Source: an uncultured Bacilli bacterium (GTDB taxonomy: Bacteria; Bacillota_I; Bacilli_A; RF39; UBA660). Taken from it: a DNA stretch of 64,000 nt. Every line of letters starts with the position of its first letter. Position 1 is the stretch's first letter. Shown piece after piece: positions 13,355-28,473 of this stretch. Below the pieces are notes generated by a model. The model saw only the letters and a program-made list of their open reading frames with translations. It was not told the origin of the DNA and made no database searches. A program made the translations under genes and the position numbers. The stretch is from NCBI GenBank assembly GCA_947623825.1, contig CANQHQ010000002.1:10124-74123 (forward strand), in the 5' to 3' direction.

Positions 13355-16297
13355 ATGAAAAAAACGTTTCTTTGGATTCATAAAAGAATTGGAGTTCTTA
13401 CGATTGGTTTATTGGCTGTTTTCATGATTGGAATAGGGCTTTTGATGAATTCTTATGCCTTAAATGAACCTGTACCCAAGATTATTTTTTCATCCCAAAC
13501 GTTAAGTTATGAAGAGAATGATTCAGGAAGTTGGAAAGTTGACAAGAGTGCCGAATGGATTGGCGAAGGAAAAGCGAGAATTACCTTTCAAGTTGATACG
13601 GTTTTAAGAACAGGAAATCCAAATACAGATGTCATTTTAGTTCTTGATATTTCAGGGTCTATGTCGGGAAATAAATTAGAGCGCGTGAAACAGGATTCTA
13701 TCAATTTATTAGATTCCTTATTATCGAATCCTAATAATCAAGCAGCATTGATTACATTCGATACAGGATCAGTATTGGTATCGGATTTTACTAATGATAA
13801 GGACAGTTTAATAGGAGAGATAAATCATTTAGAAGCTATAGGAACTACTAATTATTATCAACCGCTTGTCCATGTAGATGAGATTTTAAAAGACTATTCC
13901 AAGAAAGAAGATACAGAGTGTGTTGTTTTATTCTTAACGGATGGATATCCGAATGAGGATATTCCGAATCAGATAGGAGAATACAAATATTTAAAAAGTG
14001 AATATTCATGGTTAAATATTCATGGAGTACAGTACGAAATGGGAGAAGAGGTTCTAGATCCTATCAAAAAAGTTAGTGATAAGCAATTTATTGCGGATAT
14101 GACTACGTTGAACAATGTCTTGTTTGATGCTTCTGTTCTACCTATTCCTTATGACAAGTTTATATTAACGGATTGGATTCATAATGAATATTTTGATTTA
14201 AAGGAGATTTCGAATATCCAACCTTCTTTTGGGGAAGTAAAGTTGGAAGATGATAACGGAGTACCCAAAGTGACATGGGATTTAAGCGGTTTAGTGGCAG
14301 GACAAGGTGCCACGTTAACGATAGATATTGATTTAAAAGGAGATTCTTACACAGGAAGTGAAATTAATCCAACCAACAAGAGTAGTGAAGTGGTTTCTCA
14401 AATAGATGGGGATAAAGAAGATGTTACAACAAAGGAAAGTCCTAGTTTAAAAACACATTATAAAGTGATTTACGATGGAAATGCCCCAAGTGGATGTAGT
14501 GTAGGTGAGGTACCTGAAGCAAAAGATTATGCTGTATACGAAACAGTCGGAAAAAGTGATGCAGTTCCTATTTGTGAAGGTTATCAATTTAAAGGATGGG
14601 AAATTGTAACAGAAGAAGTGAAACAACTGAATGGTGACTATTTTCAAATGCCTGAGAAAGATGTAACATTACGAGCAGAATGGGGAAGAATGGGATTATC
14701 GAAGTCTGTGGAAGGAGAAGTTTATGTCCAAAAAGATCCAATTCTTCAAAAAATAGATTCTGATAGTTATAATAAAGAACTTTGGAAATATAAAAATTCT
14801 ATTACGAAGATAGTCTTTGAAGGGGAACAGACGTCAAAAACAGGTTCTACAGAGGAACTTACTTGGGATATTTCAGAAGCAAAAGATTGGTCGGTACGAG
14901 GATTATTGGTACCGAATTCAGATGATTCTTCGACTTATACTGCCTATATTCAAGGCTTGGAAGGAAGAGTGATTGCGAACTCAGATAGTTCTTACTTATT
15001 TGGTAGCAAAAGTTCTTCTACGTCATTTACAAAGTTAACGGCAATTGAGGGACTAAAGTTATTGGATACAAGTCAAGTAACCGATATGGCTTTTATGTTT
15101 TGCCATTGTGAATCCTTAACCAGTGTTGGAAATATAAGTGGCTGGGACGTGAGACAAGTAACCGATATGGCTTATATGTTTAGTTATTGTTATGCCTTAA
15201 CCAGTTTAGATTTAAGTGGCTGGAACACAAGTCGAGTAAAAGGTATGAGTTATATGTTTATGTATTGTAAAGTCTTAACCAGTGTTGGAGGTATAAGTGG
15301 CTGGGACACACGTCAAGTAACTGCTATGTATTTTTTGTTTGATGGTTGTAGCGCCTTAAAAAGTTTAGATTTAAGTGGTTGGAATACAAGTCTAGTAACC
15401 AATATGGGTGGTATGTTTTCCAGTTGTTCATCCTTAACTAGTGTAGGAGATTTAAGTGGTTGGGAAACCGGCCAAGTAACCAATATGAGTTTTATGTTTG
15501 ATGATTGTGAAGTCTTAACCAGTGTAGGAGATATAAGTGCCTGGGACACACGTCGAGTAACCAATATGAGTTCTATGTTTACTCGGTGTTACGTTTTAAC
15601 TACAACGATTAGTATTTTAAGTAATTCGGTGGCTAGTTATGATTTGATGTTCTATTCTGCTGCTACTAAAAATAATGCCAAGATTACCGTTAATTATTCT
15701 AGTGAATCAGAAGCATTAGTGAATCAAATGATTGCAACAAAGTCTGATGGTTGTAATGTGGTAAAAGCAAGTAGTCCGTATGTGGCACATTCCGTAACGA
15801 TTCAAGGTAGAAATGACATTATTGCGACTCCATCAAATGGAATGATGTTTACCAGAATTACGTTAACTCCAATCAATGAGGATTATATGGTTACTTCATT
15901 TGAAATGAATGGAACGAAAATAGAAGGTAATACCTTTGTTATGCCGAATGGGAATGCCATGATTACGAATGTAACTACTGGAGTGGGAACAGTGTTTGAG
16001 TCTAACCATAATCCATATGATAATAACCTAGATGATGAGTATGAACATACCTTTGAAGGCGCTACTTCTTTGACCGTTACGTTGGAGTATCAAACGGAAG
16101 AACCGGATGAATCGATGTATGATTGGATTGCCTTGTATGATAGAACTGGAAAAGAGTATGGTAAATATGGAAGAGAAACAAAAACAACAGAAACCATCGT
16201 CATCTCAGGAGATTACGTTAAACTTTTATTTCATACGGATGAGTTTGTAGATGGTTACTATGGATTCAAAGCCACTGTGGTCCCAAATTATGAATAA
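13355..16297 (+). CDS. Paralogous surface protein of 980 aa: signal anchor, vWA (DVILVLDISGSMSG), about 7 DUF285-type repeats and one C-terminal CUB-like domain.
   Basis: N-terminal 560 aa is about 75% identical to gene 436-6342. Same repeat motif WDTRQVTxMxxMF. C-terminus YGFKATVVPNYE matches the C-terminus of the first paralog. Confidence 0.9.
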   Translation: MKKTFLWIHKRIGVLTIGLLAVFMIGIGLLMNSYALNEPVPKIIFSSQTLSYEENDSGSWKVDKSAEWIGEGKARITFQVDTVLRTGNPNTDVILVLDISGSMSGNKLERVKQDSINLLDSLLSNPNNQAALITFDTGSVLVSDFTNDKDSLIGEINHLEAIGTTNYYQPLVHVDEILKDYSKKEDTECVVLFLTDGYPNEDIPNQIGEYKYLKSEYSWLNIHGVQYEMGEEVLDPIKKVSDKQFIADMTTLNNVLFDASVLPIPYDKFILTDWIHNEYFDLKEISNIQPSFGEVKLEDDNGVPKVTWDLSGLVAGQGATLTIDIDLKGDSYTGSEINPTNKSSEVVSQIDGDKEDVTTKESPSLKTHYKVIYDGNAPSGCSVGEVPEAKDYAVYETVGKSDAVPICEGYQFKGWEIVTEEVKQLNGDYFQMPEKDVTLRAEWGRMGLSKSVEGEVYVQKDPILQKIDSDSYNKELWKYKNSITKIVFEGEQTSKTGSTEELTWDISEAKDWSVRGLLVPNSDDSSTYTAYIQGLEGRVIANSDSSYLFGSKSSSTSFTKLTAIEGLKLLDTSQVTDMAFMFCHCESLTSVGNISGWDVRQVTDMAYMFSYCYALTSLDLSGWNTSRVKGMSYMFMYCKVLTSVGGISGWDTRQVTAMYFLFDGCSALKSLDLSGWNTSLVTNMGGMFSSCSSLTSVGDLSGWETGQVTNMSFMFDDCEVLTSVGDISAWDTRRVTNMSSMFTRCYVLTTTISILSNSVASYDLMFYSAATKNNAKITVNYSSESEALVNQMIATKSDGCNVVKASSPYVAHSVTIQGRNDIIATPSNGMMFTRITLTPINEDYMVTSFEMNGTKIEGNTFVMPNGNAMITNVTTGVGTVFESNHNPYDNNLDDEYEHTFEGATSLTVTLEYQTEEPDESMYDWIALYDRTGKEYGKYGRETKTTETIVISGDYVKLLFHTDEFVDGYYGFKATVVPNYE

Positions 16298-17853: not shown

Positions 17854-19704
17854 ATGTTTGAGAAAATCACATTTATTTCTGATAGTGGGGCTAATATTAA
17901 GATACGTGAAGGTGGAGAAGTGGTCGAAGACTTAATGAATCTCCATGTATTGTTTGAAGATTCAGATAAAAAGGTCGTTGCGGAAATTGAAAATATTAAT
18001 GATGGGATTGTCGGAACGAAATTTTTAGGTGAGATTGCTAATGGAAAGTTTGTGACCGGTATTATTCGAAAACCAGGACTCAATTCTACAGTACGGATTA
18101 TTACGCGAGAAGAGTTTGCGATGCTTGTGACACAAGATAGTGAAGAAGCTATTTTACTTGGGTATAGTCCTTTGTATAATAATTATCCTATTCGGGTAAA
18201 TGTCAACGATTTATTTAGTAACCACTTAGCGATTTTTGGAAATACCGGTAGTGGAAAAAGTTGTGGCGTTGCTAGTATTCTACAAAATTTATTTAATTGT
18301 CCAGGTTTTTTACCTTATAATGCCAACTTTATTATTTTTGATTCTACTGGTGAATATAAAAATGCTTTTTCTAAGATTAATACAGTCGATCCCAATTATC
18401 GGTATAACCTTTATTCTACTTCCGATGAAATCACGGATAAGGCTGAAAAACTACGTATTCCTTTATGGCTTTTGACGGTAGATGATTTTGCTTTGCTTTT
18501 ATCCGCCACTTCTCATACGCAAATTCCGATTATTGAACGAATGATTCAATTAGTGAATATTTTTCAATCTCCGGATATCAATGTGGAGGCTTTTAAAGAC
18601 CATTTGATTGCCAAAGCGATTATGAGTATTCTTTATTCCAACGAAACTTCCGCTAAAAAGAGGGATGATATTTTTTCTATTCTTATTTCTTGTTCGACCC
18701 ATAACTTTAGTTTAGAGTCAGAAATTATGGGAGTTGGATATAGTCGGAAATTCCGTGAATGCTTTGTCATCGATTCCTTAGGACAGTTTGCTGAAAGTGT
18801 GTTAATTACGAAGTATGTGGCTGATTTTATTAATGAAGATTTTGACGATTTGGTTATTACGAAGACAAATTATTTTACACTTGAAGATTTGGAAGTTGCG
18901 TTGAACTTTACATTAATTAGTGAGGGTTGGCTAAAGAATGAGAAAACTTATGGAGACGCTGTAACATTAAAAGTACGCTTACATACGTTGATTATTGGTG
19001 GATACTCTCGTTTCTTCAAACTCGATCGTTTTATTGACAAAAGAACGTATTTACATGACTTGTTATTTGACAATAATGGACGTAAATACCAAGTTATTAA
19101 CTTCAATTTGGAAGATGTCGATGATAATTTTGCGAAAGTACTGGCTAAGATTTTTTCTCGTATCGTATTTGATTTCGCTAAGAAATTGGAACAGAGGGCT
19201 TCCGTTCCGTTTAATATTATTTTGGAAGAAGCCCATCGATATATTCAAAATGATAATGACCAATTCCTCTTAGGATATAATATTTTTGATCGAATTTCTA
19301 AGGAAGGTCGTAAATATGGAGTCATGTTGACCTTAATTTCTCAAAGACCGGTAGAAATTAGTGATACGGTGATTTCTCAATGTAGTAATTTCTTAATTTT
19401 TAAAATGAATCACCCACGAGATGTGGATTATATTAAAAAGATGGTTCCCAATATTAATTCGGAAATTGTCGATAAACAAAAAGTGTTACAAGTAGGGCAC
19501 TGTGTCGGATTTGGACAAGCCTTTAAGGTTCCAACTATTATTCGGATGCAGTTACCGAATCCTTTACCACAAAGTACCAATGCCGATGTTTATGCTCGTT
19601 GGACCTATCGGCATAAACAGCAGGAAGAGGAACATCCTGGACAAAATCCTCTTCCTAATTTAAATATGCGTCCAGAAAATGCGGATTTAGCCAATCATTC
19701 TTAA
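17854..19704 (+). CDS. HerA/FtsK-superfamily P-loop ATPase (DUF87-like) of 616 aa, with an N-terminal HAS-barrel-like domain.
   Basis: Walker A IFGNTGSGKSCGV, Walker B-like ILEEAHRY and LISQRP...ISQCSNFLIFK, which corresponds to the HerA TQRP/arginine-finger region. RBS GGGGAAGG. Confidence 0.8.
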   Translation: MFEKITFISDSGANIKIREGGEVVEDLMNLHVLFEDSDKKVVAEIENINDGIVGTKFLGEIANGKFVTGIIRKPGLNSTVRIITREEFAMLVTQDSEEAILLGYSPLYNNYPIRVNVNDLFSNHLAIFGNTGSGKSCGVASILQNLFNCPGFLPYNANFIIFDSTGEYKNAFSKINTVDPNYRYNLYSTSDEITDKAEKLRIPLWLLTVDDFALLLSATSHTQIPIIERMIQLVNIFQSPDINVEAFKDHLIAKAIMSILYSNETSAKKRDDIFSILISCSTHNFSLESEIMGVGYSRKFRECFVIDSLGQFAESVLITKYVADFINEDFDDLVITKTNYFTLEDLEVALNFTLISEGWLKNEKTYGDAVTLKVRLHTLIIGGYSRFFKLDRFIDKRTYLHDLLFDNNGRKYQVINFNLEDVDDNFAKVLAKIFSRIVFDFAKKLEQRASVPFNIILEEAHRYIQNDNDQFLLGYNIFDRISKEGRKYGVMLTLISQRPVEISDTVISQCSNFLIFKMNHPRDVDYIKKMVPNINSEIVDKQKVLQVGHCVGFGQAFKVPTIIRMQLPNPLPQSTNADVYARWTYRHKQQEEEHPGQNPLPNLNMRPENADLANHS

Positions 19705-19719
19705 AGGAAGTGTATTGTT

Positions 19720-21474
19720 ATGTTTAGTAAGATTTTATATATTGGAGAACATGATGCTCAAATTCAATTGAAGGAAGATGCTTCTCTTGAAACCGATATC
19801 ATGAATATGCCACTTATTTTACAAGATAATGAAAAAACGATTTTGGCAGAAGTAAAGGATTTGTTGGATGGTTCTGTAAAAGTGAAACTTCTAGGAGAAA
19901 TCGAAGATGGAAAATTTGTCGGGGGAGTTCTTCGAAAACCAAGTTTAAATGCGGCTATTCGTCCTTTATCTGTCGAAGAGTTGACGTTGATTGTAGGAAC
20001 ACCGGCTTTTGGCTTTATGGAACTTGGAACGAGTCCGTTTTACTCTAATAAAAAAGTTTATGCGGATATGAATGAACTCTTTAGTTCTCATATGTGTATT
20101 TTTGGAAATACTGGTAGTGGAAAAAGTTGTGGAGTGGCTCGATTGATTCAAAATATTTTTTATAATCCACAATTTGTTCCCTATCGTTCGAATTTTTTGA
20201 TTTTTGATTCTTCGGGAGAGTACTATACGGCTTTTTCTAAAATGAATGAAATTAATCCGAATTATCATTATCGTTTTTTAACGACCAATGTAAATAGTAC
20301 CCATGAAGGGGAAATTCTTAATATTCCGATTTGGTTATTGAATGTCGAAGATATTGCCCTTTTGTTATCCGCTAAAACACATACGCAGTTATCTATCATT
20401 GAAAAAATGATGAAATTGGTGAAAATCTTTTCTCAATCTAGTTCGGATGCGACACAGTATAAAAATCATTTGATTGCGACGGCCATTATGACAATTATGT
20501 ATTCGAATCAAGGTTCTGCGAGTAAGAGAGATGAAATCTTTTCCATTTTGAATACTTGTCCTACGAATGAGTTTAATCTCAATGCCCCTGTGCAAGGAAT
20601 TGGGTATACGAGAAGATTACAGGAGTGCTTTTTAATTGATTCTTCTGATCAGTTTTCGGAACGTGTTTTATTAACAGAATATGTGAATCAATATATTGAT
20701 CCGGATTTAAATCAATATGAACCAAAAGAAGTTCAGTATTTCACTTTGGAAGATATGGAAAAAGCATTGAACTTTGCCTTGATTAGTGAAGGATGGTTAC
20801 GAAACGAAAATGTTTATGCTGATGCTGTATCTTTAAAGGTAAAATTACATGAACTTGTCATTGGTTCTTATGCAAAATATTTTAATTATAAACAATTTAT
20901 TTCTCTCGAACAGTACCTTAGCGGGTTGGTGATTCGGGATGGAAAGAAATATCAGATTGTAAATATTAATTTAGAGGATGTCGATGATGGGTTTGCGAAG
21001 TCGATTGTTAAGATTTTTACAAGATTGATTTTTGAAGTTTCTAGAAAGGTACAGAGGGGGAGTTTTCCATTTAATATTCTGTTAGAGGAAGCCCATCGTT
21101 ATGTTCAAAAAGATCAGGATGACTTCTTGTTCGGTTACAATATTTTTGATCGAGTTGCGAAAGAGGGAAGAAAGTATGGAGTCATTATGTCACTTATTTC
21201 TCAGAGACCAGTTGATTTAAGTGAAACGGTGATTTCTCAATGTAGTAATTTCTTTATTTTTAAGATGAGTCACCCTAGAGATATTGAGTATATTACGAAA
21301 ATGATTCCGAATATTACGGAAGATACGATTGAAAAGCAGAAATCTCTTCAAGTTGGAAATTGTCTTGCTTTTGGAGGTGCTTTTAAGATTCCTATTATTG
21401 TCAAATTGGATATGCCAAATCCGATGCCACAAAGTAGTAGTTGTAATGTTGTTGTTACTTGGACCAGTCATTAG
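19720..21474 (+). CDS. Second HerA/FtsK-superfamily P-loop ATPase of 584 aa, a tandem paralog of the previous gene.
   Basis: Walker A IFGNTGSGKSCGV, LLEEAHRY and LISQRP..SETVISQCSNFFIFK. Roughly 50% identical to the upstream gene over its full length. Confidence 0.8.
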   Translation: MFSKILYIGEHDAQIQLKEDASLETDIMNMPLILQDNEKTILAEVKDLLDGSVKVKLLGEIEDGKFVGGVLRKPSLNAAIRPLSVEELTLIVGTPAFGFMELGTSPFYSNKKVYADMNELFSSHMCIFGNTGSGKSCGVARLIQNIFYNPQFVPYRSNFLIFDSSGEYYTAFSKMNEINPNYHYRFLTTNVNSTHEGEILNIPIWLLNVEDIALLLSAKTHTQLSIIEKMMKLVKIFSQSSSDATQYKNHLIATAIMTIMYSNQGSASKRDEIFSILNTCPTNEFNLNAPVQGIGYTRRLQECFLIDSSDQFSERVLLTEYVNQYIDPDLNQYEPKEVQYFTLEDMEKALNFALISEGWLRNENVYADAVSLKVKLHELVIGSYAKYFNYKQFISLEQYLSGLVIRDGKKYQIVNINLEDVDDGFAKSIVKIFTRLIFEVSRKVQRGSFPFNILLEEAHRYVQKDQDDFLFGYNIFDRVAKEGRKYGVIMSLISQRPVDLSETVISQCSNFFIFKMSHPRDIEYITKMIPNITEDTIEKQKSLQVGNCLAFGGAFKIPIIVKLDMPNPMPQSSSCNVVVTWTSH

Positions 21475-21477
21475 GAG

Positions 21478-22995
21478 GTGTTTAGAATGGGAAAGATTTC
21501 TTCTACCATTTTATTGGTTTCTGGGTTATTTTTCATTATTGTGATTGCTTCTCTTTGGAAAATTTATAAGAAGGCTGAAAAACCTGGATGGGGTTCGTTG
21601 ATTCCTTTTTATAATTACTATTTATTATGTGATATTGTTTATCATAAAAAGATATTATTTCTTTTATTGTTTGTTCCTATTGTTGGTGAAATTTTTATGA
21701 TTGTTTTAATGTATCGTTTGGCTATGGCTTTTGGAAAAGGAACGGGGTTCGGTTTAGGAATTCTTTTCTTGCCATTTATTTTCCTTCCTATTTTGGCTTT
21801 TGGAAATGCCGAATATCAATTTAGAACGATTCAACATGTTTCGGTTGGAACGACTGTTCAGCCTGAGGGTTCTACTTCTGATTCTTCGGCTCCAGCGGAA
21901 GAAAAAAAGATAGATATTCCAGAAAATCCGATGTTAGATTCGCTTCTTCGACCGGTTCATGCACCACAGGTAGCAGAAGAACCAAAGCCAGTGGAGGGAA
22001 TGACGAATCCGCTTCCTTCGCAAAAGAGTACGGCGAGTATGATGGATGCGATTGCTTCAGTTGGATTTATTCCTTCAGAGACTCCTACCAGTCCTTCTCC
22101 TACGGCAGCTCCAGAAACTCCTGAATCTCAGATTTCTGAACCTCCCGTTTCTACTTTGGATTCTAATCCGGTGGTATCTTCGACTCCGAATGTTTCCAAT
22201 CCAGAACCTGTGGTAGGGGCTCCTGTAACGGAAAATTTGATGAATTCATCGGTAGGTTCTGTTCCTCTTCAAACTTCAACGATGGAAAATTCTGGAAATG
22301 GGAATGCGTCTTTTGATTTTATTTCTCCTCTTCCATCTACACCAGAGGCTTCGCCTTTTCAGATCCCTGAGATGACGCCAGTGGTTCCGCAAGTAGAACC
22401 TGTTTCTCCTGTTGCTGTCGTTCAGCAAGAAGAGAATTCTATGCCATCTCCTTCTATGGGAACAGAAAATGTGACTCTTGTTCCGCCTGTAGTGGCTCCT
22501 TCCGTTGTAGAGACCCCAGTGGTTGCAAGTCCGGAAGTAGCACCTGTTCCGGTTCCGCCTGTAGTGAATCTTTCTCCAGTTGTGGAAACTCCAGCGGTTG
22601 CAGCCCCAGAAGTGACTCCTGTTCCAGTTTCACCTGTAGCGACTCCTTCTCCAGTTGTGGAAACTCCAGCGGTTGCAGCCCCAGAAGCGGCGCCTGTTCC
22701 AGTTTCACCTGCAGTGACTCCTTCCGTTGTAGAGACTCCAGTAGTTGCGAGTCCAGAAGTAGCACCTGTACCGGTTCCACCTGTAGTGAATCCGTCCCCA
22801 GTTGTAGAAACTCCAGTTGTTGCAACTCCAGAAGTGGCACCTGTTCCGGTTCCACCTGTAGTGAATCCGTCTCCGGTTGTGGAAACTCCGGTGGTTGCGA
22901 GTCCAGAAGTGGCACCCGTTCCGGTTCCACCTGTGGTGAGTCCTTCTCCGGTTGCAGAAACTCCGGTGGTTGCAAGCCCAGAAAATCCGAACTAG
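21478..22995 (+). CDS. Membrane protein with a DUF5684-like N-terminal TM domain (KAEKPGWGSLIPFYNYYLL) and a long Pro/Val/Ala/Thr-rich low-complexity tail made of tandem repeats.
   Basis: Starts 4 nt after the upstream stop. Three or four TM helices in the first 115 aa, then about 390 aa of low-complexity sequence. Confidence 0.75.
   Translation: MFRMGKISSTILLVSGLFFIIVIASLWKIYKKAEKPGWGSLIPFYNYYLLCDIVYHKKILFLLLFVPIVGEIFMIVLMYRLAMAFGKGTGFGLGILFLPFIFLPILAFGNAEYQFRTIQHVSVGTTVQPEGSTSDSSAPAEEKKIDIPENPMLDSLLRPVHAPQVAEEPKPVEGMTNPLPSQKSTASMMDAIASVGFIPSETPTSPSPTAAPETPESQISEPPVSTLDSNPVVSSTPNVSNPEPVVGAPVTENLMNSSVGSVPLQTSTMENSGNGNASFDFISPLPSTPEASPFQIPEMTPVVPQVEPVSPVAVVQQEENSMPSPSMGTENVTLVPPVVAPSVVETPVVASPEVAPVPVPPVVNLSPVVETPAVAAPEVTPVPVSPVATPSPVVETPAVAAPEAAPVPVSPAVTPSVVETPVVASPEVAPVPVPPVVNPSPVVETPVVATPEVAPVPVPPVVNPSPVVETPVVASPEVAPVPVPPVVSPSPVAETPVVASPENPN
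22490..22980 (+). repeat. Tandem coding repeat of about 72 bp (unit PVVETPVVASPEVAPVPVPPVVNxS), roughly 6.5 copies.
   Basis: Near-identical 72/75-bp units are directly visible. Confidence 0.85.
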
Positions 22996-23075
22996 TAGAA
23001 GTGGTTTCACTTCTTTTTTCTTTGATAAATTTTCAGACTATAGTATAATACTAGTTGATACAAGGAGGGATAAAC

Positions 23076-24383
23076 ATGTTTGAAAGCCTAGGAGATCGAT
23101 TGCAGAGTGTAATGCATAAAATCAAAGGTTATGGAAAAATTACAGAAGAAAATATCAGTGATATGATGAAAGAAATTCGCCTTGCCTTATTGGAAGCGGA
23201 TGTGAATTATAAAGTAGTAAAAGAATTTACGAATGCAGTGAAAGAAAAAGCCTTAGGAGAAGAAGTTCAGAAAAGCATTCAACCGGGAGAATTATTTGTT
23301 AAAATCGTTAAGGACGAATTGACAGAATTATTAGGTGGGGAAAGTAAACCTCTCAATCTTTCAGGAAATCCTGCGATTTTGATGTTAGTAGGGTTACAGG
23401 GTTCTGGTAAGACGACGACCATTGGGAAATTGTCCAATTATCTTCAAAAAAAATGTGCGAAAAAGCCATTGATGGTTGCTTGTGATGTTTATCGTCCTGC
23501 CGCTATTGACCAATTAAAACAACTCGGAAAGCAATTAGGAATCGAAGTCTATGAAGAAGGAAAAAAAGATCCTGTAGAAATTTCTAAGAATGCGATTCAG
23601 TATGCGAAGGAACATCACTATGATTATGTTTTAATCGATACAGCTGGACGACTTCATATCGATGTTGAATTGATGCAGGAACTAAAAGATATTACAGAAA
23701 ATGTTCATCCACAGGAAACGTTACTTGTCATTGATTCGATGATGGGGCAAGATGCGATTCATGTGATTGAAGGATTCCATGAGTCCCTTTCTCTTACGGG
23801 AGTTATTTTGACAAAGTTGGATGGGGATACGCGTGGTGGTGTCGCTTTGTCCGTGCGTCATTTAACGAATGTTCCTATTAAGTTTGTTGGTACGAGTGAA
23901 AAATTAGATGGATTAGATTCTTTTGATCCAGAGCGGATGGCTGGAAGAATTCTTGGTATGGGAGATATTGTTTCCTTGGTAGAGAAGGCTACGGAGGCTA
24001 TCGATGAGAAAGAAGCCATGGATGCCGCTAAAAAGATGCAGTCAGGAAAATATGATTTGGAAGACTTTTTGAAACAGATGAAACAAATTCGAAAATTAGG
24101 ACCTCTTGAAAATCTTTTAAAATTATTGCCAGGTGCTAAGAAAATGAATTTAGATCAAGTAAAAATTGATCCGAAACAAATGGCTCATGTCGAAGCGATT
24201 GTTCTTTCTATGACTCCAAAAGAGAGACGGAATCCGGAAATCATTAAGGCTAGTCGTAAAACGAGAATTGCCAAGGGTTGTGGACGTTCTGTCCAAGAAG
24301 TAAATCAATTACTTTCTCAGTTTGAACAAATGAAAAAAATGATGAAGCAGATGATGAGTGGTAATATGAAATTACCATTTTAA
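23076..24383 (+). CDS. ffh: Signal recognition particle protein Ffh.
   Basis: Starts MFESLGDRLQ. GTPase motifs LVGLQGSGKTTT and DTAGR. Met-rich M domain (MKKMMKQMM). RBS AGGAGGG 8 nt upstream. Confidence 0.9.
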   Translation: MFESLGDRLQSVMHKIKGYGKITEENISDMMKEIRLALLEADVNYKVVKEFTNAVKEKALGEEVQKSIQPGELFVKIVKDELTELLGGESKPLNLSGNPAILMLVGLQGSGKTTTIGKLSNYLQKKCAKKPLMVACDVYRPAAIDQLKQLGKQLGIEVYEEGKKDPVEISKNAIQYAKEHHYDYVLIDTAGRLHIDVELMQELKDITENVHPQETLLVIDSMMGQDAIHVIEGFHESLSLTGVILTKLDGDTRGGVALSVRHLTNVPIKFVGTSEKLDGLDSFDPERMAGRILGMGDIVSLVEKATEAIDEKEAMDAAKKMQSGKYDLEDFLKQMKQIRKLGPLENLLKLLPGAKKMNLDQVKIDPKQMAHVEAIVLSMTPKERRNPEIIKASRKTRIAKGCGRSVQEVNQLLSQFEQMKKMMKQMMSGNMKLPF

Positions 24384-24488
24384 GACATGTCACTAAAAAA
24401 TTTAGGAAGAAAAAACAGATTTCTAGGCGAAGAAATTAGTATACTTTTTCTTATCTGAATATGATAAAGCAGATAGGAGGAATAAAAA

Positions 24489-24707
24489 ATGTTTAGAAAT
24501 GGTTGTTACGATCGTCAGAATGAAATGAATAACACCTTCAATATGAATGGAGATAACATGTCTGTCGATGTCGATGTTTCTATGAACAATAATGAAATGG
24601 CAGGTGCTGCTCCTATGCCAATGGGAACAGTTCAAGGACCTGTTATGGAACCTATGAGAGAAAGACAGGTACATCGTACGATTATGCATGAAGTACAACA
24701 AGTGTGA
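24489..24707 (+). CDS. Small Met/Asn-rich hypothetical protein of 72 aa.
   Basis: Strong RBS AGGAGG 8 nt upstream. Composition-biased sequence with no recognisable motif. Confidence 0.45.
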   Translation: MFRNGCYDRQNEMNNTFNMNGDNMSVDVDVSMNNNEMAGAAPMPMGTVQGPVMEPMRERQVHRTIMHEVQQV

Positions 24708-24919
24708 TAATTTATGATAGACTAAAATTTGAAGATGGATAAGTACAGACTAAAGATATTTTGGTAATCAATGTTAATTTGAAAGGATAATCTATGTGAG
24801 TAATAAATATGAATTTTTTATAGCCGGTAGAGTTAGGAATAAAGAAAATATTTTCAAATGAAACAGAATTAGAAGAGTTTTTAAAAGAGTATAATAAATA
24901 GAATAATAAAAGTTAGAAA

Positions 24920-25684
24920 GTGGGTGAATTTATGAGTATAAATAAAATAAAAAATGAATTAATTAAACAAAAACAATCTAAATTCAAGGGTAATATATAC
25001 CATTATTCACAAGTTAATTTTGCTTATAATTCAAATAAAATCGAAGGTAGTAGATTAACTAGTGAACAGACTGAGGCAATATTTGATACATCTTCTTTTA
25101 TTCCTAAAAGTAATGATTTAATTAAATTAGATGATTTAACTGAATCTAAAAATCATTTTAAACTATTTGATTATATGTTAGATAATGTAGATGAACTCTT
25201 AACTAAAGATATGATAATTGAAATGGATAAGATATTAAAACGAAATACTAGTGATGAAGAAAATCCTAGATATAATGTTGGTGGATTTAAAGTTGTTCCT
25301 AACATTATAGGTGTTGTTAATGTTATTAATACTACTGCACCAGATGATGTTGAAAAAGAAATAGAAAAATTATTAAAGGAATATAATTCTAAAAGCAGTA
25401 TTACTCTAGAAGATATAGTTGATTTTCATTTTAGATTTGAAAGAATTCATCCTTTTGGAGATGGAAATGGGCGTGTAGGCAGAATCATAATGTTTAAAGA
25501 ATGTTTAAAAAATAACATTATGCCATTTATTGTATTTGATGATGATAAACCCTATTACATGAGAGGTTTAAAAGAATATGAGCAGGATAAAATGTTTTTA
25601 ATTGATACTATAAAACATGAACAAGATTTGTTTGAAAAAACTTGTGAAGAACTATTAAATTTTGAAATAGAAGAAAATAAGTAG
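24920..25684 (+). CDS. Fic-family protein, a putative AMPylase/adenylyltransferase.
   Basis: Canonical Fic core motif HPFGDGNGRVGR (HxFx[DE]GNGRxxR) near the C-terminus. Confidence 0.75.
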   Translation: MGEFMSINKIKNELIKQKQSKFKGNIYHYSQVNFAYNSNKIEGSRLTSEQTEAIFDTSSFIPKSNDLIKLDDLTESKNHFKLFDYMLDNVDELLTKDMIIEMDKILKRNTSDEENPRYNVGGFKVVPNIIGVVNVINTTAPDDVEKEIEKLLKEYNSKSSITLEDIVDFHFRFERIHPFGDGNGRVGRIIMFKECLKNNIMPFIVFDDDKPYYMRGLKEYEQDKMFLIDTIKHEQDLFEKTCEELLNFEIEENK

Positions 25685-25691
25685 AAAAATT

Positions 25692-25742
25692 ATCATCCTA
25701 TAAATTGAAATTAAAATTTTAATATAGGATGATTTTTATTTT
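25692..25742 (+). terminator. Rho-independent terminator after the Fic gene.
   Basis: Perfect 11-bp inverted repeat ATCATCCTATA / TATAGGATGAT with a 20-nt loop, followed by TTTTATTTT. Confidence 0.55.
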
Positions 25743-25800
25743 ATTAAAATTGTAGTATTTCTTATGTTACTTCTTAATATCAATCTAGAAATTAGGATGA

Positions 25801-25872
25801 ATTTCGTAAGTACGAAATAAGAATGGTGTATACACGTGCCCTTATTATATAAGAAGAACGTGGATACACCAT
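25801..25872. repeat. Two adjacent palindromic elements: the perfect palindrome ATTTCGTAagTACGAAAT, and the imperfect inverted repeat ATGGTGTATACACG ... CGTGGATACACCAT.
   Basis: Directly visible between the Fic gene and the recombinase gene. Candidate recombinase or regulator binding sites. Confidence 0.5.
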
Positions 25873-26302
25873 CTTCTTATCCTGCTCTTTTATAAATTAA
25901 TATATATTAAGGATTTATAGGATACTAGATGAATTTTTCTATAGTTTAAGACTCGACTCTTTTTCTTAGTAGAGGTAATATGCATCACGAAAAGGATGAT
26001 ATTTATGATATATGAAAGTAAAGTGAATGTTTATAAGTAGTACTAAATTCATGTTTAATTTGATTCTTATACAATTTAGTATTACTAAAATCGATGATTT
26101 ATCCATAAGTTTAAGTGAGGTGCTTAAAATATATGGATAAGTACAAAATTAATTATATTTTCAGTGTAGAAAAGGATATTAATGATATTTTTATAAAAGT
26201 TTTAAATAAAGAACTAAAAAAATATATTTTAATGATTTGTAAAAATAAAAAATACGAGGTACCATCATCATGTACTTACTCATCTCTAGAAGGAGGTAGA
26301 AA

Positions 26303-27868
26303 TTGTTAGAGAGTTTCAATAAGATATATCATGTTGGTCTTTATATCAGATTATCTCGTGAAGATGATGATAAGGTATTGATGAGTGAAAGTATTATAAA
26401 TCAGAAAAGTTTATTACTTCAATATGTAAAAGAGAATCATTTGAGAGTTTACGATATTTATATTGATGATGGTTATTCTGGGACTAATTTTGATAGACCA
26501 GACTTTCATAGATTACTGAAAGATATTGAACTTGGAAAAGTAAATATGGTTATTACCAAGGATATGTCAAGACTTGGAAGGGATTATATTGGAACTGGTA
26601 ATTTTGTAGAAAAATATTTTCCAGAACACAATGTTAGATATATTGCTGTTACAGATAATATAGATACTTTTTTAGATAATTCAAATAATGATATTGCACC
26701 ATTTAAAGCTATAATGAATGACATGTATGCTAAAGATATTTCTAAAAAAATAAAGTCTAGTTTAAAAGCAAAAATGAAAGAAGGAAAATGGGTAGGTGGA
26801 AGATGTCCATTTGGATATAATCAAGATAAAAATGACAAAAATCACTTAGTAATAAATAAAGAACAAGCTGATATTGTAAAAAAAATATTTAATATGTGTT
26901 TAGAAGGTTTATCATTTTATAAAATAGCAAAACGGTTAACGGATGAAAAAATAAAGACTCCTGCAGAGTATTATAGTTTCGAATGGAAAAGTCATTATAA
27001 TTTAAAGTATGGAGAGTGGCATTCTAAGACAATTAGAGATATTTTAACGAACAGAATGTATATAGGTGATCTAGTACAAAACAAAAGAAGCAAGGTAAAT
27101 TATAAAGTTAAAAAGATTGTTAGGAATAATTCTAATGATTATATTGTTGTAGAAAATACCCATGAAGCAATTATTGATAAAGAAACATTTTATGAAGTTC
27201 AAAAAAGAATACCAAAAAATAAGGGAAGAAATGAAAAAAAAGAAAATCATTTACTAGATGGACTTTTGTATTGCGCAGATTGTGGACATCGGATATCAAT
27301 TACATCTAGAAGAAAAAAAGATAATAAATGTTATACTATTTGTAATTACTATCGAACTTATATGAGGCAAAGACTTTGCACAACTCATTCAAATAATTAT
27401 GATGAGTTAGAGAAAATAATTATTCATTCCTTGACTAAAATGTGTTTGAATTATATTAGCAAAGATAAAATTAAAAATGATGTTTTATCTAATTTAGATA
27501 AAATGAGTAAAGTTAATGATAAAAAAGAACTACAGACACTTAATAATGATATTAAACAAATTAACCATAATTTAGATGATATTTATATTGATAAGTTAAA
27601 TAAAAAAATTACTGAAGAACAATTTGAAAGAGTTAAATTAAAACTAGAAACTGAACTTTCTATAAAACAAAAAAAGTATCATGAATTAAATGATAATAGG
27701 AATGATACAATAAATGAAAAATCTAAAAATAAAATGATAACAGAATATATTAATGAATTTTTATCAATGAAAGAACCTCATAGAGAACTTATAATTAATC
27801 TAGTTGATAAAATAGAAATATTTGAAGATAAGAATATAAATATTCATGTTACTTTTAATAAAATCTAA
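26303..27868 (+). CDS. Large serine recombinase with a resolvase/invertase-type catalytic N-domain, a recombinase domain and a zinc ribbon. TTG start.
   Basis: YIRLSREDDD catalytic-serine motif, a DGYSGTNFDRP box, then a CxxC...C cluster (CADCGHRI). 521 aa. RBS GGAGG. Confidence 0.8.
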   Translation: MLESFNKIYHVGLYIRLSREDDDKVLMSESIINQKSLLLQYVKENHLRVYDIYIDDGYSGTNFDRPDFHRLLKDIELGKVNMVITKDMSRLGRDYIGTGNFVEKYFPEHNVRYIAVTDNIDTFLDNSNNDIAPFKAIMNDMYAKDISKKIKSSLKAKMKEGKWVGGRCPFGYNQDKNDKNHLVINKEQADIVKKIFNMCLEGLSFYKIAKRLTDEKIKTPAEYYSFEWKSHYNLKYGEWHSKTIRDILTNRMYIGDLVQNKRSKVNYKVKKIVRNNSNDYIVVENTHEAIIDKETFYEVQKRIPKNKGRNEKKENHLLDGLLYCADCGHRISITSRRKKDNKCYTICNYYRTYMRQRLCTTHSNNYDELEKIIIHSLTKMCLNYISKDKIKNDVLSNLDKMSKVNDKKELQTLNNDIKQINHNLDDIYIDKLNKKITEEQFERVKLKLETELSIKQKKYHELNDNRNDTINEKSKNKMITEYINEFLSMKEPHRELIINLVDKIEIFEDKNINIHVTFNKI

Positions 27869-28129
27869 CAAAAAAGGGCAGTCACATGTTTGTCCAATTC
27901 GTACACGTGTTATTAATCATCATGTATACCGTCATACATATCGTCCATCGTATTCTTGTTGTGAAGAGAATGTATGTAGTCAAATTCAATGTGGTTCTTG
28001 TTGTAATTTTAGATAAAAGTCGCAAGACTTTTTTCTTTTGCAGTTCTTTGTCAACTTTTGTCTAATTTCTGTAAATTACTTGTAATCTTGAAAGAATGAT
28101 TTTATTATTAAAATAGGGAAGGTGATACA

Positions 28130-28330
28130 GTGATTTATCCATCGATTGACAAAATTTTAAACATTATTGATTCTAAGTATGAGTTGGTTCATATCATCAG
28201 TAAACGTAGTAAACAAATGGCAGCGACGGGGCATTATCAAATGCCAGAGTATAAGTATGTTTCGAAAAAAAATCTAGGTAGAGCATTGGAAGAAGTGGCA
28301 GAAAATTTAATTCTTGTGAAGAAGGACTAA
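28130..28330 (+). CDS. rpoZ: DNA-directed RNA polymerase omega subunit, with a GTG start.
   Basis: 66 aa. MIYPSIDKILNIIDSKYELVHIISKRSKQM matches the RpoZ consensus (M.YPSID.LL...DSKY.LV...KRA.Q.). RBS AGGGAAGG. Confidence 0.7.
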   Translation: MIYPSIDKILNIIDSKYELVHIISKRSKQMAATGHYQMPEYKYVSKKNLGRALEEVAENLILVKKD

Positions 28331-28473
28331 GTGTCCTTTTTTCTTTGAATACAAAATGTTGAATTATAAGATTAAGTTTATTCTTTTTCATTATAATAGA
28401 TGGTCATAGGAAATAATTTTTTTCTGAATTGATAGACGAACAAATGTATTATGTTGTATAATAAAGATGATAG

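What the first reader, a model, noticed from the sequence alone, without database searches (positions are those of the whole stretch)
24710..28110. An AT-rich islet encoding a Fic-motif protein and a large serine recombinase is inserted between ffh and rpoZ.
GC drops sharply across about 3.4 kb, and rpoZ is separated from its usual upstream neighbourhood. The islet encodes a protein with the exact Fic catalytic motif HPFGDGNGRVGR. Fic proteins are AMPylating toxins or regulators and are often mobile. It also encodes a 521-aa serine recombinase with a zinc ribbon, the type that mobilises integrative elements and phages. No flanking direct repeats were found by eye, so the boundaries are approximate.
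Basis: partly seen in the sequence, partly recalled or inferred. Interest (0 to 1): 0.55.

Follow-up and report, generated by a model that had tools for sequence, protein, structure and literature searches.

The report
Mini mobile element splitting a spore-coat gene
The AT-rich islet is a 3.2-kb mobile element that sits inside a small CotD-like spore-coat gene rather than between genes; it carries its own serine recombinase and one Fic gene resembling anti-phage defence candidates, so it looks like a miniature relative of the elements that spore-formers cut out of sporulation genes.

Summary
A 3,186-bp segment (24701-27886, 23.9% GC against 35.2%) encodes a Fic protein and a 521-aa large serine recombinase (LSR).

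The interpretation needs one correction. The islet is not intergenic. It splits a 113-codon CotD-like gene at a CA dinucleotide (24699-24700 and 27885-27886). Joining the two halves gives an ORF 92-93% identical to uninterrupted genes. In 25 related species the order is ffh-cotD-rpoZ with an empty site. Six or seven species carry an element at the same CA.

The promoter-less 3' halves of 12 split alleles are all intact, and their pN/pS is the same as for uninterrupted genes. A sigmaK-like -10 motif precedes cotD in 32 of 32 loci.

Besides fic, the element holds a conserved module:
- a hairpin cluster ending in TATCCTGC, the MOBP nick consensus (candidate oriT);
- a sigmaA-like promoter, a small upstream ORF and an RBS hairpin;
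- a 58-aa ORF overlapping the LSR start (candidate directionality factor).

Sister elements swap Fic for other defence-type genes.

Best reading: a skin/gin-type sporulation-gene intervening element that is very small, carries a defence-like gene and may be mobilisable. Excision timing, spore formation by the host and the oriT function are inferred, not shown.

The parts
24458..24466 (+). sigmaK-like -10 element (AATATGATA) of the cotD-like gene; a TAGGC motif lies upstream at 24423-24432
   Evidence: [C/A]ATAnnnTA lies 24-33 nt upstream of the ATG in 32 of 32 distinct cotD upstream regions. Shuffles give 3.9 of 32 (maximum 10 in 500). The match to the sigmaK consensus CATAnnnTA rests on established B. 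subtilis knowledge.
24489..24700 (+). 5' part of the split CotD-like spore-coat gene (codons 1-70 plus 2 nt). In the integrated state it runs on to a TGA at 24705-24707.
24699..24700 (+). attL crossover dinucleotide CA (shared core ACA 24698-24700)
   Evidence: attL, attR and the attB of L081 were aligned. The same CA is used in all elements, and the reconstructed attP is symmetric about it.
24701..27886 (+). the inserted element, 3,186 bp, 23.9% GC
24735..24750 (+). partial duplicate of the start of the 58-aa ORF (ATGGATAAGTACAGAC), conserved near the left end of sister elements
24932..25684 (+). fic cargo gene (250 aa from the ATG with an SD sequence). It has HPFGDGNGRVGR and the inhibitory motif SNKIEG.
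   Evidence: Pfam Fic. Clostridium difficile Fic, PDB 4x2e, E 6e-33. PADLOC PDC-S04 E 9e-100 and SoFic E 6e-20. The gene caller gives 250 aa.
25692..25745 (+). conserved terminator-like hairpin ATCATCCTATA...TATAGGATGAT followed by a T run; it marks the 5' border of the recombination module
   Evidence: It is conserved upstream of the module even where the cargo differs. Coordinates. The simple terminator scan misses it because the stem has too few G-C pairs.
25784..25885 (+). conserved cluster of hairpins ending in the invariant CTTCTTATCCTGC (TATCCTGC at 25878-25885); candidate origin of transfer, or else a structured RNA
   Evidence: Found in 50 loci, 38 distinct copies. 95.4% of cells are paired against 35-48% when partners are slid; 14 of 27 pairs show compensatory changes; 0 of 500 shuffles reach this. 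Fold z = -4.7. No Rfam family. The MOBP nick consensus (C/T)ATCCTG(C/T), with an inverted repeat just 5' of it, is taken from PMC3772185.
25953..25981 (+). sigmaA-like promoter (TCGACT-17-TAATAT; TTGACT-17-TATCAT in relatives) for the uORF-orf58-recombinase unit
   Evidence: Present at the same position in 17 of 70 distinct upstream regions against 2.1 expected.
25996..26040 (+). small upstream ORF (14 codons); its stop codon lies in the 5' arm of the long hairpin
   Evidence: Read from the alignments; coordinates. This is an inference.
26036..26086 (+). long inverted repeat AGTAGTACTAAATT...AATTTAGTATTACT; the structure is kept although the sequence differs in distant elements
26099..26140 (+). 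hairpin TTATCCATAA...TTATGGATAA with the SD sequence in the loop and the orf58 start codon in the stem (CCATAG/CTATGG in distant elements)
26133..26309 (+). 58-aa ORF overlapping the recombinase start by 7 nt; candidate recombination directionality factor
   Evidence: Conserved directly upstream of the recombinase down to 53% recombinase identity. 295 clusters of about 58 aa, none named, no Pfam domain. Predicted as a single helix, residues 3-38, pLDDT 65. No PDB or PHROG hit. The arrangement mirrors skr-spoIVCA and sprB-sprA (PMC6957869).
26303..27868 (+). large serine recombinase, 521 aa, TTG start preceded by AGGAGG
   Evidence: Pfam Resolvase, Recombinase and Zn_ribbon_recom. PHROG integrase E 4e-111. 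TnpX and SprA (YokA) in the PDB. TndX 36% identical.
27885..27886 (+). attR crossover dinucleotide CA (shared core ACA 27884-27886). The conserved attP left arm ATCTAACAAAAAAGGGCAGTCA lies just 5' of it.
27887..28016 (+). 3' part of the split CotD-like gene (codons 71-113 and stop); it has no promoter or start codon of its own
28015..28039 (+). terminator hairpin of the cotD-like gene (AAAGTC-GCAA-GACTTT followed by a T run)
   Evidence: Read from the sequence. A chance ctRNA hit marks the hairpin. Coordinates.

Best explanation
The islet is a 3,186-bp integrative element. Its large serine recombinase (LSR) inserted it at one CA dinucleotide inside a 113-codon CotD-like spore-coat gene. That gene normally lies between ffh and rpoZ.

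In order, the element contains:
1. one cargo gene, a class-II Fic protein of a family listed as a phage-defence candidate;
2. a terminator-like hairpin;
3. a conserved hairpin cluster ending in TATCCTGC, most likely an origin of transfer used in trans by a MOBP relaxase;
4. a sigmaA-like promoter, a short leader ORF and an RBS-sequestering hairpin;
5. a 58-aa ORF that overlaps the LSR start and is the likely directionality factor;
6. the LSR itself.

Proposed working. Recombination of attL with attR by the LSR, helped by the 58-aa protein, removes the element as a circle and restores the cotD reading frame exactly. This most likely happens in the mother cell late in sporulation, where cotD is read from a sigmaK-type promoter. 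The forespore keeps the element, as with skin, SPbeta and gin. Spread between species is by integration of the circle into empty cotD sites, possibly after conjugative mobilisation.

Shown by computation: the insertion, its exact junction, the empty sites, site specificity, the integrity of the split halves, and the conserved module.

Inferred: when and in which cell excision happens, the directionality-factor role, the oriT role, the defence role of Fic, and that the host makes spores.
For: Split gene and junction.
- 390 full-length homologues of the joined protein exist. The best is 92% identical and also 113 aa.
- L081 and 25 GTDB species have an uninterrupted ffh-cotD-rpoZ-recX.
- Joining at the CA gives a 342-nt ORF. 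Against L081, dN/dS is 0.08 overall and 0.03 for the 3' half.

Site specificity.
- Every related recombinase (66% identity or more) with enough flank sits at the same CA in cotD.
- Two more distant recombinases (55-58%) use the same CA.
- The reconstructed attP is an imperfect inverted repeat about the CA: 13 of 24 in the window, 16 of 24 in L111, 21 of 24 in L160. Random pairs average 7.5.

Selection on the split gene.
- All 12 complete 3' halves of split alleles are intact.
- Their pN/pS is 0.33, against 0.29 for uninterrupted genes.
- Cargo decays in some elements (Fic remnants in L085-87, L091-92 and L096) while orf58 and the recombinase persist.

Sporulation link.
- 39 of 42 family members match Pfam CotD.
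- [C/A]ATAnnnTA lies 24-33 nt upstream of the start in 32 of 32 loci, against 3.9 expected.

Horizontal spread.
- The element occurs in 6-7 of about 32 species, in a patchy pattern.
- Fic is 91% and the recombinase 81% identical in a host whose Ffh is only 69% identical.

Module.
- orf58 is conserved next to the recombinase over wide divergence. It overlaps the recombinase start as skr overlaps spoIVCA.
- The hairpin cluster shows strong covariation. Its TATCCTGC matches the MOBP nick consensus.

Cargo.
- Fic matches PADLOC PDC-S04 at E 9e-100.
- Other elements carry GmrSD, NERD, PDC-S13, HNH, PHP or reverse transcriptase genes.
Against: - No sigmaE- or sigmaK-type promoter is conserved in front of orf58 or the recombinase. 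The conserved promoter there looks sigmaA-like. Nothing therefore supports mother-cell timing.
- No sporulation gene other than the cotD-like one lies in the 64-kb window. The host is an uncultured, small-genome member of Bacilli. That group contains both predicted spore-formers and non-spore-formers (PMC10868615).
- The window's own joined protein scores below the Pfam CotD threshold (18.2 bits against 22). NCBIfam does not recognise the family.
- No attP junction (excised circle) was found in the held loci or in IMG/VR. The exact joined protein is not in the protein collection.
- orf58 resembles no known directionality factor, and its model is of modest confidence.
- The element has no relaxase. 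The hairpin cluster is missing from 22 of 70 related modules and from L002.
- Intact halves could also reflect recent insertions. The dN/dS values mix time before and after insertion.
Confidence: 0.6

Rival explanations
1. Plain disruptive insertion. The LSR element simply landed in cotD and inactivated it. The host tolerates the loss, because CotD is dispensable or the lineage no longer sporulates. Excision is rare, unprogrammed and serves only transfer.
For: The promoter in front of orf58 and the recombinase is sigmaA-like, not sporulation-specific. No other sporulation gene lies in the window. Related uncultured Bacilli include predicted non-spore-formers. No excision products were found. 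Relatives of the recombinase module also split a non-cotD gene, a GH25-LysM hydrolase.
Against: All 12 complete promoter-less 3' halves are intact, and their pN/pS equals that of uninterrupted genes. Elements with decayed cargo still keep orf58, the recombinase and both cotD halves. The sigmaK-like promoter and RBS are retained in front of truncated 5' halves.
Confidence: 0.25
2. Reversible or signal-controlled switch. Excision and reintegration occur in growing cells under a post-transcriptional signal (leader ORF, RBS hairpin). Populations then mix cotD-ON/element-free cells with cotD-OFF/Fic-carrying cells. There is no mother-cell restriction.
For: The sigmaA-like promoter is followed by a conserved upstream ORF and a hairpin that sequesters the orf58 ribosome-binding site, with compensatory changes. 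The C. botulinum yin element shows growth-phase-dependent mixed states (PMC10747680).
Against: There is no evidence of circles or of mixed alleles for this strain. An excised 3.2-kb circle has no recognisable replication function and would be lost.
Confidence: 0.1
3. One reading: an intergenic AT-rich islet between ffh and rpoZ whose Fic protein is an AMPylating toxin or addiction module, with no link to a host gene.
For: The Fic motif and the mobility of the islet are real.
Against: The insertion is inside a conserved ORF. The Fic protein carries its own inhibitory motif and has no partner antitoxin gene. Fic is replaceable cargo.
Confidence: 0.03

Closest known systems
skin (sigK-intervening element) of Bacillus subtilis and Clostridioides difficile
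   Same: An element with a large serine recombinase at one end splits a mother-cell sporulation gene, and precise excision restores the ORF. In B. subtilis the directionality factor gene skr overlaps the 5' end of spoIVCA (PMC6957869). Here orf58 overlaps the recombinase start in the same way.
   Different: skin is 48 kb (14.6 kb in C. difficile; sizes from my own knowledge), is prophage-derived and targets sigK. This element is 3.2 kb, has no phage genes and targets a CotD-like coat gene. Its recombinase unit has a sigmaA-like rather than a sigmaE-dependent promoter. Excision has not been demonstrated.
gin element in gerE of Bacillus cereus ATCC 10987 (GirC and the 42-aa GirX; PMC5595907)
   Same: A non-prophage intervening element in a very small sporulation gene (225 bp there, 342 bp here). 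It has an LSR and a tiny directionality factor with no recognisable motif. Its attP is an imperfect inverted repeat around a central dinucleotide. The authors suspected spread by conjugative mobilisation.
   Different: gin is 28.6 kb, has three recombinases and a 9-bp shared core. Here there is one recombinase, a 3-bp shared core, a single cargo gene and a recognisable oriT-like site.
SPbeta SprA/SprB in spsM
   Same: SprA (YokA) is a detectable homologue of the recombinase (PDB 9dxh, E 1e-23). The sprB-sprA unit has the same gene order.
   Different: SPbeta is an active 134-kb phage. sprB is driven by stress and sigmaE/K promoters. orf58 shows no sequence similarity to SprB.
Relaxase-less integrative mobilisable elements of gut Firmicutes, and Tn1549-type MOBP ICEs (PMC12084326)
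   Same: Small elements with a serine or tyrosine recombinase, cargo genes, no conjugation genes and a sequence resembling a MOBP oriT. Here TATCCTGC follows an inverted repeat.
   Different: Those elements were not reported inside sporulation genes. The oriT function here rests only on the motif, the hairpins and covariation.
Tn4451/Tn5397 recombinases TnpX and TndX
   Same: They are the closest characterised LSRs by sequence: the TnpX catalytic domain at E 1e-26 and TndX at 36% identity.
   Different: Those are resistance transposons with their own Mob or conjugation functions, and they use GA-dinucleotide targets (my own knowledge). Identity to them is low.
Clostridium difficile Fic (PDB 4x2c/4x2e), and the SoFic and PDC-S04 defence candidates
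   Same: A class-II Fic fold with the SxxxEG inhibitory motif and the HPFxDGNGRxGR active site. The match to PADLOC PDC-S04 covers the full length.
   Different: No target or activity is known for this protein. PDC-S04 is a candidate, not a validated defence system.

Membership tests
Sporulation-gene intervening element (skin/SPbeta/gin type) | Interrupts the coding sequence of a sporulation gene expressed in the mother cell | tested here: inconclusive
   Interruption of a conserved 113-codon ORF is shown. The CotD family link is consistent but weak: 39 of 42 relatives match PF11122, while the window protein scores 18.2 bits against a cut-off of 22. A sigmaK-like -10 is present in 32 of 32 loci. 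Mother-cell expression is inferred.
Sporulation-gene intervening element (skin/SPbeta/gin type) | Carries a site-specific recombinase whose att sites flank the element, so that precise excision restores the ORF | tested here: met
   The LSR lies at the right end. Joining in silico at the CA gives the intact ORF. attP is symmetric about the CA. Empty sites show the same sequence.
Sporulation-gene intervening element (skin/SPbeta/gin type) | A cognate recombination directionality factor | tested here: inconclusive
   The 58-aa ORF is conserved and overlaps the recombinase start. No homology to known factors was found. Directionality factors have no common motif (PMC12286644).
Sporulation-gene intervening element (skin/SPbeta/gin type) | Excision during sporulation, confined to the mother cell | not testable with these tools
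   No sporulation promoter was seen at the recombinase unit; a sigmaA-like one is conserved. No circles were found.
Sporulation-gene intervening element (skin/SPbeta/gin type) | The host is an endospore former | tested here: inconclusive
   No other sporulation gene lies in the window. The clade is uncultured Bacilli, with mixed predictions in the literature.
Large serine recombinase | N-terminal resolvase catalytic domain with the serine nucleophile, a recombinase domain, a zinc ribbon and a C-terminal coiled-coil region | tested here: met
   Pfam PF00239, PF07508 and PF13408. The R16-x-S18-R19 motif is invariant in alignment A1. Homologues are TnpX and SprA.
Fic (AMPylase) family, class II | Active-site motif HxFx(D/E)GNGRxxR, plus the inhibitory motif (S/T)xxxE(G/N) on the N-terminal side in the same chain | tested here: met
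   HPFGDGNGRVGR and SNKIEG are present. They align with C. difficile Fic, PDB 4x2e. Activity was not tested.
Anti-phage defence gene (PADLOC PDC-S04 / SoFic) | Match to the family model; protection against phage | tested here: inconclusive
   The model match is strong (E 9e-100, full length; SoFic E 6e-20). PDC-S04 is only a candidate family, and protection cannot be tested here.
MOBP-type origin of transfer / integrative mobilisable element | Nick sequence (C/T)ATCCTG(C/T) with an inverted repeat immediately 5' of it | tested here: met
   TATCCTGC lies at 25878-25885. It is invariant or nearly so in 38 copies. The hairpins just 5' of it carry compensatory changes. The consensus is from PMC3772185.
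MOBP-type origin of transfer / integrative mobilisable element | A cognate relaxase (in cis or in trans) that nicks the site; demonstrated mobilisation | not testable with these tools
   There is no relaxase in the element. No similar DNA was found in PLSDB plasmids.
Rfam RNA families | Match to a curated covariance model | tested here: not met
   No credible hit was found in 24300-28400 at E up to 5.

The most novel reading that the evidence does not exclude
The conserved non-coding part of the recombination module may be a new regulatory system. That part comprises the covarying hairpin cluster with its invariant CTTCTTATCCTG, the short leader ORF whose stop lies in a long hairpin, and the hairpin that hides the ribosome-binding site of the 58-aa ORF. 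Such a system, RNA-based or attenuator-like, would gate production of a new family of directionality factors. It would thereby decide when hundreds of small defence-gene cassettes in gut Firmicutes leave and rejoin host genes (cotD here, a GH25-LysM hydrolase gene elsewhere). On this reading the hairpin cluster is a structured RNA, not an oriT.
Probability: 0.2. Interest if true: 0.75.

Novelty: new variant of a known kind. Interest (0 to 1): 0.55.

Why it matters
It would extend programmed rearrangement of sporulation genes in four ways:
- to a new target, a CotD-like coat gene;
- to a barely studied, uncultured, small-genome branch of gut Bacilli;
- to a much smaller element than those characterised so far: one cargo gene plus a recombination module, 3.2 kb against the 14.6-134 kb elements compared above (skin sizes from my own knowledge);
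- to cargo that looks like single-gene anti-phage defence.

It also yields a compact, natural set of parts for testing. These are an LSR with defined attB and attP of about 46-50 bp and a CA crossover, a conserved 58-aa candidate directionality factor (295 sequence clusters), and a candidate MOBP-type oriT.

If the oriT reading holds, it gives a concrete transfer route for non-phage intervening elements. The gin study left that route open.

Tried and rejected
- Rfam scan of 24300-28400 at E up to 5: only chance hits, nothing on the hairpin cluster.
- BLASTN of 25680-26310 against PLSDB plasmids: no match.
- tblastn of the recombinase against plasmids: best hit only 36-37% identical (TndX-like).
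- Search for the attP junction in all held loci and in IMG/VR: none.
- Exact look-up of the joined CotD protein: not in the collection. Near-identical uninterrupted alleles P0001 and P0242 are.
- NCBIfam on 42 CotD-like proteins: no family. Profile search against the PDB: nothing.
- NCBIfam on 30 window ORFs to find sporulation genes: only housekeeping and surface-protein genes.
- Extending the contig through exact-protein look-ups: nothing useful.
- orf58 against PDB, PHROGs and Pfam: nothing beyond a sub-threshold FlaG hit. The AlphaFold model is a single helix of modest confidence, so no fold search was run.
- An outer stem pairing AGGATGA with TCTTATCCT was rejected. The 5' side varies (AGGTTGA) with no compensating change on the invariant 3' side.
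- A sigmaE-like motif in the loop of the long hairpin (TTCATGTT-12-TATACAAT) was rejected as a conserved promoter. It is absent from distant elements.
- My first joined protein had Q71 (joined after GTG). It was corrected to H71 once the attB of L081 showed the true crossover.
- IMG/VR contigs carrying the module were checked for phage genes: none convincing, and one carries a reverse transcriptase as cargo.

Full report
**1. What is there**

GC content falls from about 0.34 to 0.19-0.28 across roughly 24.6-28.2 kb. A Fic protein contains HPFGDGNGRVGR (Pfam Fic, E 5e-14). A 521-aa protein has resolvase, recombinase and zinc-ribbon domains. ffh (23055-24383) and rpoZ (28130-28330) flank the region. 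With the exact boundaries found below, the element is 23.9% GC against 35.2% for the rest of the window. It is the lowest 3.2-kb stretch in the whole 64 kb.

**2. The islet is inside a gene**

A 72-codon ORF ends at 24707, exactly where the AT-rich DNA begins. Just after the recombinase stop, an open frame reads ...HVCPIRTRVINHHVYRHTYRPSYSCCEENVCSQIQCGSCCNFR*.

A joined protein finds 390 uninterrupted homologues of about 105-120 aa. The best, P0001, is 113 aa and 92% identical. P0001 lies on contig L081, where the order is ffh-cotD-rpoZ-recX-pcrA with no insertion. L081 is a different species: ffh is 81% identical at the nucleotide level.

Aligning the attB of L081 with the window's two junctions places the crossover in a shared ACA (24698-24700 and 27884-27886). 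Joining after the CA gives a 342-nt ORF, MFRNGCYD...HEVQHVCPIRT...CCNFR. Against L081 its dN/dS is 0.08, and 0.03 for the 3' half.

Of 42 family members, 39 match Pfam CotD (PF11122), the best at E 8.6e-7. The window's own protein scores 18.2 bits, below the cut-off of 22. One homologue is named 'CotD family spore coat protein' by NCBI. NCBIfam gives nothing. I therefore call the gene CotD-like rather than cotD.

**3. Presence and absence in relatives**

A scan of one genome per GTDB species with Ffh returned 52 loci from the same clade of uncultured Bacilli (Ffh 66-87% identical). Their records are variously labelled Bacilli, Tenericutes or Erysipelotrichaceae.

- 25 loci have an uninterrupted cotD between ffh and rpoZ.
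- L013, L030 and L042 have the gene split at the same codon by a Fic-plus-recombinase element of 3.1-4.9 kb.
- L002, L039 and L051 show the attL junction.
- The L029 contig ends 5 nt past the junction.

The distribution is patchy. The closest relative by Ffh, L001, is empty, while the next, L002, is occupied. In L042 Ffh is 69% identical to the window's, yet Fic is 91% and the recombinase 81% identical. That points to horizontal movement.

A metagenome scan with a recombinase alignment added 80 loci. Of the 29 with a recombinase 66% or more identical, 21 have the cotD 3' half downstream and 3 (L085-87) show only the attL junction in cotD. The other five contigs end within or just after the recombinase gene.

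**4. att sites**

The attP left arm (ATCTAyCAAAAAAGGGCA...) and right arm (...GTGATAATTTATGATAGAC) are conserved between elements. The reconstructed attP is an imperfect inverted repeat centred on the CA: 13 of 24 positions in the window and 12-14 in close relatives. Random pairs average 7.5, and P(13 or more) is 0.017.

Two more distant recombinases (55-58% identical, L111 and L160) use the same CA in cotD. Their attP sites match at 16 of 24 and 21 of 24 positions. CA is not palindromic, as a serine-recombinase crossover requires. This explains why no direct repeats were visible by eye.

**5. Is the split gene still under selection?**

All 12 complete 3' halves from split alleles run to the normal stop with every conserved Cys and His in place. 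Their pairwise pN/pS is 0.33, against 0.29 for 26 uninterrupted genes.

These halves have no promoter or start codon of their own. Constraint on them makes sense only if they are rejoined. Several elements carry decayed cargo (Fic fragments in L085-87, L091-92 and L096) while keeping orf58, the recombinase and the cotD halves. That argues for residence times long enough for decay to show.

One caveat applies. Divergence between alleles includes time before insertion, so this evidence is supportive, not decisive.

**6. Link to sporulation**

Upstream of cotD, all 32 distinct loci have [C/A]ATAnnnTA 24-33 nt before the ATG. Shuffles give 3.9 of 32, with a maximum of 10 in 500. This matches the sigmaK -10 consensus CATAnnnTA known from B. 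subtilis. The two-block sigmaK promoter structure is described in PMC517825. In the window the motif is AATATGATA at 24458-24466.

The rest of the window holds only housekeeping and surface-protein genes. The literature predicts both spore-forming and non-spore-forming lineages among these uncultured orders (PMC10868615). Spore formation by this host therefore remains an inference.

**7. The recombination module**

A 58-aa ORF (26133-26309) overlaps the TTG start of the recombinase by 7 nt. It is conserved in that position even next to recombinases only 53-56% identical. It forms 295 clusters of about 58 aa. None is named and none has a Pfam domain. There is no PDB or PHROG match. The model is a single helix, residues 3-38, with mean pLDDT 65.

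Known directionality factors are small and share no motif: GirX is 42 aa, and PMC12286644 reports the same. In skin, skr overlaps the 5' end of spoIVCA (PMC6957869). By position and size, orf58 is the obvious candidate, but that is all the evidence there is.

Upstream of orf58 lie three features:
- a sigmaA-like promoter (TCGACT-17-TAATAT at 25953-25981; TTGACT-17-TATCAT in relatives). It sits at the same position in 17 of 70 distinct regions, against 2.1 expected;
- a 14-codon ORF (25996-26040) whose stop lies in the 5' arm of a long hairpin (26036-26086);
- a hairpin (26099-26140) with the SD sequence in its loop and the orf58 start codon in its stem.

Both hairpins keep their structure through sequence changes in distant elements. 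No conserved sigmaE or sigmaK promoter was found there. This is the main weakness of the mother-cell model.

The recombinase itself is related to TnpX and SprA. It is 36% identical to TndX.

**8. The hairpin cluster**

Between a conserved terminator-like hairpin (25692-25745) and the sigmaA-like promoter lies a roughly 100-nt element (25784-25885). It occurs in 50 loci, always on the recombinase strand.

- On 38 distinct copies, 95.4% of cells are paired, against 35-48% when partners are slid.
- 14 of 27 pairs show compensatory changes, and 0 of 500 shuffles reach the observed values.
- The window copy folds with z = -4.7.
- It matches no Rfam family.

Its 3' flank, CTTCTTATCCTGC, is almost invariant. 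TATCCTGC fits the MOBP nick consensus (C/T)ATCCTG(C/T), which follows an inverted repeat in RP4 and in H. pylori tfs4 (PMC3772185).

Three further points bear on its nature. The element lies upstream of the module's promoter. It is absent from 22 of 70 modules and from L002. Relaxase-less serine-recombinase elements with MOBP-like oriT sequences have been described in gut Firmicutes (PMC12084326).

I therefore favour an origin of transfer used in trans (about 0.55-0.6). A separately transcribed structured RNA is the main alternative. G-T pairs on the + strand outnumber A-C pairs about 53 to 22. That fits single-stranded folding of the + strand under either reading.

**9. The cargo**

The Fic protein is closest to Clostridium difficile Fic (PDB 4x2e, E 6e-33). 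It has the N-terminal inhibitory motif SNKIEG. It matches PADLOC's phage-defence candidate PDC-S04 over its full length (E 9e-100) and also SoFic (E 6e-20).

Sister elements carry other cargo, in place of Fic or alongside it:
- a split GmrSD-type restriction enzyme;
- a NERD nuclease;
- a Bro-N protein matching PDC-S13 (E 6e-113);
- an HNH protein;
- a PHP-domain protein;
- a reverse transcriptase.

Fic is thus interchangeable, defence-flavoured cargo, not part of the recombination machinery. Defence activity is untested.

**10. Verdict**

The thing is best described as a miniature, non-phage, cotD-intervening element of the skin/SPbeta/gin kind, with a single defence-type cargo gene and a probable oriT.

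The insertion, junction, site specificity and module conservation are shown by computation. Programmed excision in the mother cell, the directionality-factor role, the oriT role and the defence role are inferences. I put the full model at about 0.6.

The main rival is a plain disruptive insertion with no programmed excision, at about 0.25.

Noticed in passing
window 25784-25885 (and 50 related loci, e.g. L122 5276-5390): A roughly 100-nt cluster of hairpins with strong compensatory variation and an almost invariant 3' flank, CTTCTTATCCTGC. It lies upstream of this recombinase family and matches no Rfam family. It is a candidate MOBP-type oriT or a new structured RNA.
   Followed up: partly
window 25953-26140: A sigmaA-like promoter, a 14-codon upstream ORF ending inside a long hairpin, and a hairpin that sequesters the SD sequence and start codon of the 58-aa ORF. 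The structures persist although the sequences differ in distant elements. This suggests translational control of the recombinase unit.
   Followed up: partly
window 24735-24750: The left end of the element holds a partial copy of the start of the 58-aa ORF (ATGGATAAGTACAGAC..., MDKYRLKIFW*). The motif ATAAGTACAAA is conserved at the same place in sister elements. It may be a relic of a minimal attP-orf58-recombinase unit, or a binding site.
   Followed up: no
L122 3700-7680 (also L114-L158): Recombinases 53-56% identical, with the same hairpin cluster and 58-aa ORF, sit in AT-rich elements of about 3.8 kb. In L122 the cargo is an HNH protein. That element splits a GH25-LysM cell-wall hydrolase gene inside a LysM repeat in a high-GC Clostridia-like host. 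There attL and attR share 13 bp (GGCGACACGCTTT).
   Followed up: partly
L111 788-4689; L160 5825-13436: Two other recombinase lineages (55-58% identical) are inserted at exactly the same CA of cotD. Their attP arms are different and much more symmetric (16 of 24 and 21 of 24). The site is a shared hotspot. L160 carries a two-gene GmrSD-type restriction system and an 874-aa protein.
   Followed up: partly
L029 (contig end at 11581): The contig of this GTDB genome stops 5 nt after the cotD junction codon. That is what an assembly break at an element present in only part of the population, or in several copies, would look like.
   Followed up: no
L171 2911-5080: A related module (recombinase 77% identical), on a contig that IMG/VR calls viral, has a reverse transcriptase (PHROG 1423, E 3e-99) and a Fic-like protein as cargo. 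No phage structural genes were seen near the modules on the two viral-labelled contigs examined (L171, L172).
   Followed up: partly
window 21478-22995: A DUF5684 membrane protein has a long C-terminal Pro/Val/Glu-rich repeat region (PVVETPVVASPEVAPVPVPPVV...). It raises local GC to 0.45-0.55, the opposite compositional outlier to the islet.
   Followed up: no
window 17854-21474: Two adjacent HerA/FtsK-like ATPase genes (616 and 584 aa) lie between ftsY and ffh. The arrangement is conserved in relatives. The first has sub-threshold similarity to anti-phage-associated HerA.
   Followed up: no
window 436-6342 and 13355-16297: Two very large surface proteins (1,968 and 980 aa) combine a VWA domain with many PARCEL repeats, a repeat type known from Mollicutes and Listeria. 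This fits a host on the Bacilli branch near the Mycoplasma-like lineages.
   Followed up: no
window 27846-28016: An ATG inside the last codons of the recombinase gene is in frame with the cotD 3' half, giving a 56-aa ORF. It has no SD sequence and is not conserved in sister elements, so it is probably meaningless.
   Followed up: no
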